Assembly (NCBI GenBank): GCA_965228475.1
Contig: OZ245817.1
Coordinates: forward strand, 4,480,001-4,544,000
Source of the DNA: Myxococcota bacterium
Lineage (GTDB): Bacteria > Myxococcota_A > UBA9160 > JAFDDA01
Direction: 5' to 3'
DNA: 64,000 nucleotides
A program made the position numbers. The stretch's first letter is position 1. Each line of letters begins with the position of its first letter. Below, piece by piece: positions 45,901-48,900 of the stretch.

Positions 45901-48900
45901 ACGGTGCCCGGTTCGCGCCGGGGCGTTTCCGCGATTGGTGGCTCGCCGCCGCCGACGCCGGCCCGGAGACCCTGCTCCGCTGGCACGGGAGCCTCGACCC
46001 CGAGCTCCTCGTGCTCGAACTCCAGGGCCGCATCGAAGTGACCCAGAAGCCCGACGACGCCACCGAGCGGGAAGGCTGGGCACCGCCGCCCGGATCCCAG
46101 ACCCTCGACGGGGACTTCCACTACCGCCCGCTCCGCGAAGGCGACGACCTCGCCGAGCTCACGATGCTCCTGAAGTGCCTCTACGAAGCGAACTACGCGG
46201 ACTACTTCCGCGTGATGCAGGGCCCGCGTCACGAGCTCCCGATCGAGACCGAGGAGTGGGCCCTTCGCTGGCGGACGGGCCGGCTCGAAGACCTCGGCTT
46301 CCCGTCGCGCGAAGACGCCGCGGCGCTCTTCGCGAGAATCGAGCCCGAGGAGCGCGGCGAACTCCACGACGATGCCGCCGTGCTCGACGTGGCCGGCTTC
46401 CGGTTGCCCGTCTGGTTCCCGAAGGTCCCGATCGCCGTCGATGCGGAACACGCCGTGCTCGCGGCCGCCGCGCGGCTCCCGGAATCGCTGCGCGAAGGCT
46501 TCCTGTACCGCCTGATGGCCGTCGCGAACAAAGTGGCCGTGGCCTACGGCCTGCCGCTCTCGGACGTCGAATCCGTCCCCGCGGCGATGGACGAAGCCGT
46601 GCGCATGACGAGCCGCGGGCTCGAGGAGATCGCGCGCGCGAACGGCGTGGCGACCGAGGAGGTCCTGCGCAGGACGTCGCTCGAGCGGCTCTTCCGCGTG
46701 GGTGCCTCGTTCCATCCCGAGAAGGCCGAACGCGTGCTCGAACTCGGAGAAGCTCCCCTCGAAGAGAAGCCCGGAGCCGACGACGCGGCCGAAGCGGAGA
46801 GCTGACCGGGCAACGAGAACCGATGCCCGAAACGAAGAACGCCCGCGAACCGACGGCTCGCGGGCGTTCCAGACTCTCGAGAGCGGCGACTAGATGTCGA
46901 CGGCCTTGATGGTCTTGCGCTTGTTGCCGATCGCGCGCGCCTCGGCACCCTTGATGATGTCGCGGACGTGCGCGTCGAGCGCAGCGTAGAACTCACTGCT
47001 CACGTTGCACTTCTTGGTCGCGCCCTTGGTGCGCGACTTCGAGATGATGAGCTCCGCCGGCTTGCTGCTGCGGCGACGCGTTGCCTTCTTCTTCTTACGA
47101 GCTGCCATGTTCCGTTTCCCTCCAACGTCGGTGCCGGTTCACGGCGACCGCGTGTTCCCCCCTCGGCTTGCCCGAGGTTCCGGGGCCGATCATAAGCAAC
47201 TTTCCGTCGGGGGCAACGGAAAAACGGCCGAAATCGGGCGCGGGAAGCCGCCTGGAGCCCGTTCTCGAAATCGCTTCCGAGACGACTCCGCCGGCCGGTT
47301 CGCTAGTTTCGCTTCCGTGCGGGACGTGAGCCAGGCATCGGAGCAAGCCGCGAAGCAGGCCGATTACGGCGCGGCGCGGAGCGAGTTCTTCACGCGCCCG
47401 GAACTCGACGGCGTGCGGCTCCATGCACTGCACTGGGGTGACCCGGATGGGCCGGCCATCGTGCTCGTCCACGGGGGCGGGGCCAACGGGCATTGGTGGA
47501 AGCAGCTCGCGCCCTCCCTCGCGAACGGCGCCCACGTGGTCGCGCTGGACTTTCGCGGGCACGGGGATTCGGACTTCCCGGAACGGCTCGCCGAAGGCGA
47601 CTTCCAGAGCGATCTTCATGCCTTGCTCGACCAGCTCGAAGCCCCGGACGCCGTTCTCGTGGGCCATTCCATGGGCGGAGAAGTCGTTCTACGCGTGGCC
47701 GCCGGCGGCCGTGCGACGCCCCGGGGCGTCGTCCTGCTCGATCTCGCGCGGGGCCGCAGCGACCGGGCCCGCCGCCTATTGCGGCGGGCTCTCACGATCC
47801 GTCACGCCTACCGGACGCGCGAGGAGGCCATCGAGCGCTTCCGCTTCGTCCCGCCCGCCGTCCACGTGGAGGAGGCGCTCCGGAACGAGATCGCCTCCCA
47901 CTCCGTCCACGCGGATGCCGGGGGGCGCTGGAGCTTCAAGTCCCACCGGGGCTGGATCGATGCGATCCCCTCGGACGAAGCGCGCCCGAGCGACGTGGCC
48001 TGCCCCGTGCTCTTCCTGCGCGGCGACGAGAGCGGAATCTGCAGCGAGGACGGGGCCCGCGAGCTGGTCGGGGCCCTGCCGCACGGGCGGCTCGCGACGA
48101 TCCCGCGCGCGGGGCACCACGTCCATCTCGACGCACCCGAGCCCACGGCGCGCGAGATTCGCCACTTCCTCGCCGGCCTTCCGCGCTGAGGCCCACCCCG
48201 GGTCGCCGACGGTCCGGCAGCGCGGATCCCCGCCAGGAGGCCGGGGGCGGGGTGTATGATGCCCGCGTCCGGCGCCTTTCGCGCCGCGGGAGCCCGACAT
48301 GGACGATCTCCTCCAGCGCCCTCTCACCGAACTCCTCGACCGCCTCGAACGGAAGGAACTCTCTCCGGTCGACGTCATGGAGCGGACCCTCGGGCGGATC
48401 GGGAGCCTGAACGGAACCCTGAACGCGTTCTGCGAGCTCGCCGACGAGGCCGACCTCTACGCCCAGAGCCGCGCCGCGGAGCAGCGCTGGCAGGAGGGAA
48501 CCGCCCGGCCCCTCGAAGGCATTCCCCTCGGCGTGAAGGAGCTCGAGGACGCGGTCGGCTTCCACGCGACCCACGGCTCGGCGCCCTTCCGCGACCGCAT
48601 GGCCGAGAAGGACTCGCCCCAGGTGGCACGCCTGCGCGCGGCCGGGGCGATCGTGGTCGGCAAGACCAACGCCCCCGAGTTCGGCTACACGGCCATCACC
48701 AAGAACCTGCTGCACGGCGTGACGCGCAGCCCCTGGAACACCGAGCACACGCCGGGCGGCTCGAGCGGCGGCTCCTCCGCCGCGATCGCCGGCGGCATGA
48801 TCCCGCTCGTCACGGCGAGCGACGGGGGCGGGTCGATCCGGCTGCCGGCCACCTTCACCGGCTGCTTCGGCCTGAAGATCAGCTACGGCCGCATCCCGAA

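What a model noticed while it worked through the whole genome (the two positions that open the first line are those of the whole stretch)
46890..47108. No HU: nucleoid set is IHF plus a single-copy bacterial histone
The genome lacks HU; its only two HU/IHF-family genes are IHF alpha and beta. It carries an unannotated 72-aa histone (g04041) that is a single-copy core gene of the order, plus two very basic proteins (g00014 at 13131, conserved across the class, and the 49%-Lys g01527). UBA9160 is thus an order in which a histone, not HU, is the likely bulk chromatin protein.
Evidence so far: Two PF00216 matches in DNA, both over the IHF equivalog cut-offs. 38 of 41 order genomes have exactly two matches, one has one, two have more. 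g04041 hits face-to-face histone HTkC (9f2c, E 0.002; calls 85, 91) and is found once in 40 of 41 genomes in conserved context. g00014 in 5 of 5 relatives including the sister order.
(Added by a program. Inside this text positions count along the whole contig: contig position 4,480,001 is position 1 of the stretch shown here. "Call 12" and the like, gene names such as g00115 and contig names such as C1 are that model's own, and its searches are not shown. The text may have been shortened before it was handed on; [...] marks where a part breaks off. The agent that wrote the report below was given it as the finding of a first reader that could run no searches.)

Follow-up and report, generated by a model that had tools for sequence, protein, structure and literature searches.

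The report
Bacterial class swaps HU for histone
A large group of uncultured bacteria has lost HU, the protein most bacteria use to pack their DNA, and almost all members carry a DNA-wrapping type of histone instead, while the two members that clearly lost this histone carry HU-like genes, which hints that the two proteins can stand in for each other.

Summary
The 72-aa gene is real: a face-to-face (FtF) histone with a K/R tail, a conserved near-consensus promoter and a terminator. The genome's only HU/IHF genes are ihfA and ihfB. The pattern covers the whole class: histone in 208 of 225 genomes (116 of 118 high-quality); an intact non-IHF nucleoid HU-family gene seen in only 3 (93 two-gene genomes untyped). 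Two of the 3 (different orders) lack the histone at an assembled syntenic locus; in one, a tailed HU-like gene sits in that locus. The title overstates: this genome also has HBb-type and ZZ-type histones (HBb noted earlier by this scan), Dps-like, EbfC, SMC and K-rich proteins. Outside the class, 13 of 15 genomes with the same histone keep an HU-type gene, and 3 outgroup genomes lack HU without a detectable histone. FtF histone without HU is published for Leptospira, and close relatives of this histone are already catalogued. New are the class-wide HU loss and the reciprocal swaps. Abundance, tetramer and DNA binding are untested. Bulk-chromatin role about 0.6; interest 0.6.

The parts
46890..47108 (-). 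face-to-face (FtF) alpha3 histone gene, 72 aa; fold residues about 18-72 with invariant R58, N62, R64, T66, D71
   Evidence: fold of a natural doublet relative matches HLp (0.8 A over 54 aa) and HTkC (0.9 A over 54 aa)
47058..47108 (-). K/R-rich N-terminal tail (residues 1-17), variable in length, low model confidence
47118..47123 (-). ribosome-binding-site-like GGAGGG, 9 nt before the ATG
   Evidence: sequence
47189..47216 (-). sigma70-type promoter-like site with a 16-nt spacer, conserved in orthologues
   Evidence: 0.0 expected in shuffles; at least 9 of 12 matches in 29 of 36 order loci against 2.0% of 4350 genes of this genome; alignment
46829..46870 (-). 16-bp hairpin followed by a U-rich run: likely intrinsic terminator of the histone gene
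   Evidence: z -4.4, 0 of 200 shuffles
45585..46805 (+). DUF6178 gene, convergent neighbour used as synteny marker
   Evidence: present in 24 of 36 order loci
47326..48189 (+). alpha/beta hydrolase gene, divergent neighbour used as synteny marker
   Evidence: present in 25 of 35 other order loci

Best explanation
The gene encodes a face-to-face histone (shown by sequence and fold). By analogy with HLp and HTkC it forms a ring-shaped homotetramer that wraps about 60 bp of DNA without sequence preference, the basic tail adding DNA contacts (inferred). The class ancestor gained this histone and lost HU (inferred from distribution). The histone, made from its own constitutive promoter as a one-gene transcript, is the main non-specific DNA-packing protein. 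IHF stays as the site-specific bender, with HBb-type and ZZ histones, Dps, EbfC, SMC and K-rich proteins as accessories (inferred). Lineages that lose the histone take up HU-like genes or another histone.
For: FtF residues invariant in 28 of 28 class sequences and defined as such in PMC11390915 section 7. Profile hits HTkC and HLp, not HBb. Histone in 116 of 118 high-quality class genomes, single in 205 of 208, against 0 of 51 outgroup genomes of the phylum, 47 of which have three or more HU/IHF genes; 5 of 6 typed outgroups hold an HU-type gene. All 15 class genomes with more than two PF00216 matches were resolved; intact non-IHF nucleoid-type genes occur in G009, G127 and G235 only. G127: the peptidase and dehydrogenase genes that flank the histone in 6 of 9 sister-order loci are 131 bp apart with no histone, and a tailed HU-like gene follows directly. 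G009 (99% complete): the DUF6178 block is intact on a 150-kb contig without the histone; two HU-like genes and a full-length histone lie elsewhere. Fisher 2 of 17 against 1 of 208, p 0.015. Promoter conserved in 29 of 36 order loci; none before the HBb-type gene in this genome or in 4 orthologous loci. Precedent: Leptospira FtF histone abundant, essential, no HU (passages).
Against: No abundance, localisation or binding data. 13 of 15 genomes outside the class that carry the same histone subfamily keep an HU-type gene, so the histone does not make HU dispensable by itself. G155, G159 and G195 have only IHF alpha and beta and no histone at E 0.001 with a broad profile, and G180 has no HU-type gene among its three, so HU can be lost without it. 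HBb/ZZ-type histones occur in 177 of 225 class genomes, and in Bdellovibrio HBb is the most abundant nucleoid protein although HU is present (PMC10627809, passage). The swap rests on two genomes; G009 also gained another histone, so its HU-like genes need not be the substitute. G235 has both the histone and an HU-like gene (1039-bp contig, 6% contamination). The promoter scored at least 9 of 12 in only 1 of 8 sister-order loci.
Confidence: 0.6

Rival explanations
1. Shared chromatin: no single protein replaces HU. The HBb-type histone, H1-like K/A-rich proteins (g01527, g00014 and others), Dps and EbfC together do the packing, and the FtF histone is one contributor.
For: Three histone genes, Dps-like, EbfC, SMC and at least four very basic proteins in this genome; HBb dominates the Bdellovibrio nucleoid; HTkC is 34-fold below HTkA in Thermococcus.
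Against: The FtF gene is the most constant histone (208 of 225, against 177 of 225 for HBb and ZZ types together) and the one with a conserved consensus promoter; its loss coincides with HU-like gain.
Confidence: 0.25
2. IHF does HU's job. HU was lost because IHF covers non-specific bending, and the overlap with the histone is a coincidence of two events on one branch.
For: Outgroup genomes with IHF only and no histone found; histone and HU coexist in 13 of 15 genomes outside the class; the class-level pattern is one evolutionary event, not 225. Partial HU/IHF redundancy in E. coli is recalled, from no call.
Against: Both verified histone losses carry HU-like genes although IHF is intact; these are two events in different orders.
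Confidence: 0.12
3. Artefact: HU is present but missed (divergent, unassembled or mis-typed as IHF).
For: All genomes are metagenome assemblies; 93 of 184 two-match genomes were not typed gene by gene.
Against: This genome is one contig, 96% complete; the same search finds HU-like genes down to 42 bits and rings over cut-off in 9 control bacteria; both genes pass IHF cut-offs, sit in the ihfA/ihfB contexts and group with outgroup IHFs in a tree.
Confidence: 0.03

Closest known systems
HLp of Leptospira perolatii and the L. interrogans FtF histone (PDB 9qt0-9qt2; PMC12701072, PMC10627809)
   Same: FtF family, basic N-terminal tail, host without HU, proposed principal DNA organiser; core superposes at 0.8 A over 54 aa.
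   Different: Leptospira has one histone and no Dps; this genome has three histone types, a Dps-like protein and both IHF subunits. Sequence is closer to archaeal HTkC (41% against 32% in the structural alignment; E 1.9e-7 against 0.009), which suggests a separate acquisition (inference). No SMC gene next to it.
HTkC of Thermococcus kodakarensis (PDB 9f2c), archaeal FtF histone
   Same: Best solved-structure match by sequence; alpha3 truncated; RxTxxxxD.
   Different: No tail; minor histone beside nucleosomal HTkA.
HBb/Bd0055 and the ZZ histone of Bdellovibrio bacteriovorus (PDB 8fvx, 8cmp)
   Same: This genome encodes both types elsewhere; same alpha3 fold (1.2 A).
   Different: The window gene keeps the R and N tetramer residues that bacterial dimers lack; Bdellovibrio keeps HU.
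Bacterial histones listed in Table S1 of PMC10627809 (rows for TMED72, TMED88, UBA6930, UBA4427)
   Same: Close members of the same tailed subfamily are already catalogued as histones.
   Different: No link to HU loss in that lineage was seen in the passages read.

Membership tests
face-to-face (FtF) histones | histone fold with short alpha2 and truncated alpha3 | tested here: met
   Natural doublet relative P0002 folds at pLDDT 93 with helices 14-20, 28-51, 59-62; top matches all histones. The window protein's own model was weak (pLDDT 68).
face-to-face (FtF) histones | RxTxxxxD motif | tested here: met
   R64, T66, D71 invariant in 28 of 28
face-to-face (FtF) histones | tetramer-interface Arg and Asn four residues apart (R48, N52 of the family logo) | tested here: met
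   R58, N62 invariant in 28 of 28; definition in PMC11390915 section 7
face-to-face (FtF) histones | conserved lysines on alpha1 | tested here: met
   K24, R26, K28 invariant
face-to-face (FtF) histones | torus-shaped homotetramer (the formal definition) | not tested
face-to-face (FtF) histones | wraps about 60 bp of DNA non-specifically | not testable with these tools
   needs purified protein
bacterial dimer histones (HBb type) | lack of the R48/N52 pair and sequence closeness to Bd0055 | tested here: not met
   pair present; profile gives no HBb hit at E 10, whereas the gene at C1:4014547 does (E 1.6e-12)
Leptospira-type chromatin (FtF histone as principal organiser) | no HU gene | tested here: met
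Leptospira-type chromatin (FtF histone as principal organiser) | only one histone and no Dps | tested here: not met
   three histone genes and a Dps-like ferritin
Leptospira-type chromatin (FtF histone as principal organiser) | histone highly abundant and essential | not testable with these tools
   no RNA holder listed; no cultured member known to me

The most novel reading that the evidence does not exclude
Histone-fold and HU-fold bulk chromatin proteins are interchangeable within one bacterial class: the ancestor replaced HU by a DNA-wrapping FtF histone, and at least two descendants went back by acquiring HU-like genes (one in the vacated locus, with a basic tail) or a full-length histone. 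This would be a natural, repeated switch between histone-based and HU-based chromatin in bacteria.
Probability: 0.4. Interest if true: 0.8.

Novelty: new variant of a known kind. Interest (0 to 1): 0.6.

Why it matters
HU is described as present in most bacteria with only sporadic, non-clade-specific losses (10.1101/2024.06.24.600358, Results part 1; 92.8% of genomes in PMC10627809). A class of 225 species almost wholly without it, with a conserved DNA-wrapping histone, is a second and much larger case than Leptospira. The reciprocal swaps make an open question testable: can a histone do HU's job in a bacterial cell? The genes are small and can be tested in an E. coli strain lacking HU.

Tried and rejected
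Codon adaptation put the gene at the 99th percentile, but held-out ribosomal protein genes scattered from 0 to 99, so the test says nothing. The idea that the 16-nt-spacer promoter is a stable-RNA type was dropped: 2 of 60 tRNA/tmRNA genes had such a site. The single-chain model gave no Foldseek chain. Pfam and NCBIfam do not recognise the histone. One search, protein 4 and protein 2 used a wrong frame of the upstream gene and are void; redone. A recalled likeness of g00014 to crenarchaeal CC1 could not be tested: no Pfam match, only unnamed Atlas clusters, listing only. The histone tree (56 columns, quick method) cannot name a donor. The HU/IHF tree is the quick one; the careful search did not finish. 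A shared origin of the histone tail and the G127 HU-like tails was not accepted, since several unrelated basic proteins here begin alike. The cluster look-up for names of the G009 histone's relatives could not be made. Literature searches for a prior report of HU loss in this lineage found nothing (supplements, with one scanned file unread; three files of PMC10627809 unread).

Full report
The gene. Window 46890-47108 (-) encodes 72 aa. Orthologues keep the start, a K/R tail of variable length and a highly conserved core. A ribosome-binding-like site, a sigma70-type site and a strong hairpin with a U-rich run flank it, so it reads as a one-gene transcript. The promoter-like site scores at least 9 of 12 in 29 of 36 order loci, nearly always with a 16-nt spacer, against 2.0% of 4350 genes of this genome and 3.9% of 1133 genes with a long upstream gap; in the sister order only 1 of 8 loci reach it. 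Kin are not independent, so this shows conservation, not strength.

What kind of histone. The single sequence matches HTkC at E 0.002; a 30-sequence profile matches HTkC at 1.9e-7 and Leptospira HLp at 0.009, and no HBb entry at E 10. The residues that PMC11390915 (section 7 read; passages) gives for face-to-face histones are invariant in 28 of 28 class sequences. The protein's own model is weak, but a natural in-frame doublet of the same subfamily folds at pLDDT 93 and superposes on HLp, HTkC and HBb at 0.8, 0.9 and 1.2 A. The tetramer was not modelled (tool not available). Close relatives are already in Table S1 of PMC10627809 (supplement rows).

No HU. The genome is one contig, 96% complete, with two PF00216 genes, typed as ihfB and ihfA by cut-offs and context. 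In 101 order genomes, 94 pass the ihfA and 96 the ihfB cut-off; 84 of the 88 two-match genomes have both, and the other four hold contig-end pieces or duplicates of IHF. In all 225 class genomes the counts are 0 in 1, 1 in 25, 2 in 184, 3 in 11 and 4 in 4. I resolved all 15 with more than two. Nine hold IHF duplicates, frameshifted copies, foreign IHF or contig-end pieces (G002, G008, G041, G073, G077, G087, G210, G232, G240). G151 has a broken HU piece, G234 a chimeric fragment, G269 a signal-peptide protein with a split HU domain. G009, G127 and G235 have intact HU-like genes. 93 two-match genomes and 18 one-match genomes were not typed. Outside the class, 47 of 51 phylum genomes have three or more genes and 5 of 6 typed ones include an HU-type gene.

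Distribution of the histone. 208 of 225 class genomes, 116 of 118 high-quality ones, single in 205; 0 of 51 outgroup genomes. Of the 17 without it, 15 are under 90% complete. G135 and G094 also lack the DUF6178 neighbour; G122 and G132 lack the peptidase neighbour and G131's lies at a contig end; G232 keeps DUF6178 without the histone and is unresolved. G092 lacks a close hydrolase neighbour and G227 had no hit; the remaining seven were not checked for synteny.

Reciprocal cases. In the sister order the histone lies between a peptidase gene (9 of 9 loci) and a dehydrogenase gene (6 of 9). In G127 these two genes are 131 bp apart on one contig, and an HU-like gene with a long K/R tail follows the dehydrogenase in the histone's orientation; a second HU-like gene lies elsewhere. 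In G009 (99% complete) the block around DUF6178 is intact without the histone; it has two HU-like genes and a full-length histone inside a block syntenic with this genome. The four HU-like proteins form one long-branch clade apart from IHF and from outgroup HU, so they look acquired, not retained (inference). Two of 17 against 1 of 208 gives p 0.015; it rests on two events. G009 has 11,484 withheld bases, none in the locus examined.

Against a simple story. These types match 177 of 225 class genomes. A Dps-like ferritin, EbfC and SMC are present, with several K-rich proteins. The same histone subfamily occurs in records titled Planctomycetota, Eisenbacteria, Latescibacterota, Krumholzibacteriia and Methylomirabilota (577 stretches, best 80 kept). 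Of 28 genomes searched through those loci, 13 matched class genomes by coordinates or counts and were set aside. Of the other 15, 13 keep an HU-type gene: six with HU as best NCBIfam model, seven below IHF cut-offs and outside the IHF clades (40 of 41 genes fetched). Conversely G155, G159 and G195 have only IHF and no histone with a broad profile that did find two histones in G009.

How it most likely works. Shown: FtF sequence features, fold, near-universal single copy, absence of HU, two losses paired with HU-like genes. Inferred: tetramer wrapping about 60 bp as for HLp (PMC12701072, abstract and passages), high constitutive expression, and the role of main DNA-packing protein (0.6). Rivals: a shared job among several histones and K-rich proteins (0.25), IHF covering for HU with a coincidental histone (0.12), artefact (0.03).

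What is known. That Leptospira lacks HU and Dps and relies on an FtF histone is stated in PMC12701072 and its preprint (passages). FtF histones in Myxococcota are listed in PMC11390915. A survey of 6,116 genomes reports no clade-specific absence of HU (10.1101/2024.06.24.600358, Results part 1). I found no report of HU loss in this lineage or of reciprocal swaps (searches; the library lacks most subscription papers). PMC11894785 was seen as passages only and added nothing. Verdict: real, broader than reported, less clean than titled; a new variant of a known arrangement, interest 0.6.

Noticed in passing
L293:1480-1701(+) (G009:C582): A 74-aa histone with a full-length alpha3 helix, best solved matches H4 (E 4e-5), inserted between thiL-like and groEL-like genes in a block syntenic with this genome; 448 relatives, two named Myxococcota. 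PMC11390915 says nucleosomal histones are only archaeal. Not found in this genome.
   Followed up: partly
L063:4423-4797(-) (G056:C50), protein P0002: In-frame doublet of the FtF histone without the K/R tail; the two halves are identical at 159 of 159 nt compared, so a very recent duplication or an assembly artefact; the cluster has 10 members on 3 contigs.
   Followed up: partly
G000:C1:4014547-4014732(+) and about C1:2359400-2359934(+): HBb-type histone and ZZ-type zinc-finger histone in the same genome.
   Followed up: yes
L110:1632-2093(+) (G000:C1:13131-13592): g00014: two repeats of a 30-aa basic unit plus a long K/R tail; no Pfam; unnamed Atlas clusters from bacteria and archaea; a likeness to crenarchaeal CC1 is recalled, untested.
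   Followed up: partly
L108:1423-2451(+) (G269:C1): 343-aa protein with a signal-peptide-like start and an HU domain split by an insertion of about 240 aa.
   Followed up: no
L099, L100, L101, L104-L106, L277-L279 (G155, G159, G180, G195): A second group in the phylum (mostly family f21) with IHF genes only and no histone found: another HU-less lineage with an unknown packing protein.
   Followed up: partly
G000:C1:1696157-1696558, 608879-609229, 2380265-2380909: Three more very basic proteins: 133 aa with 49% Lys; 116 aa with K-rich ends; 214 aa K/A-rich fused to a FYDLN_acid domain.
   Followed up: no
P0158-P0263 (alignment A4): A family of 118-130-aa doublet FtF histones among distant relatives, with the R/N and RxTxxxxD residues kept in both halves.
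   Followed up: partly
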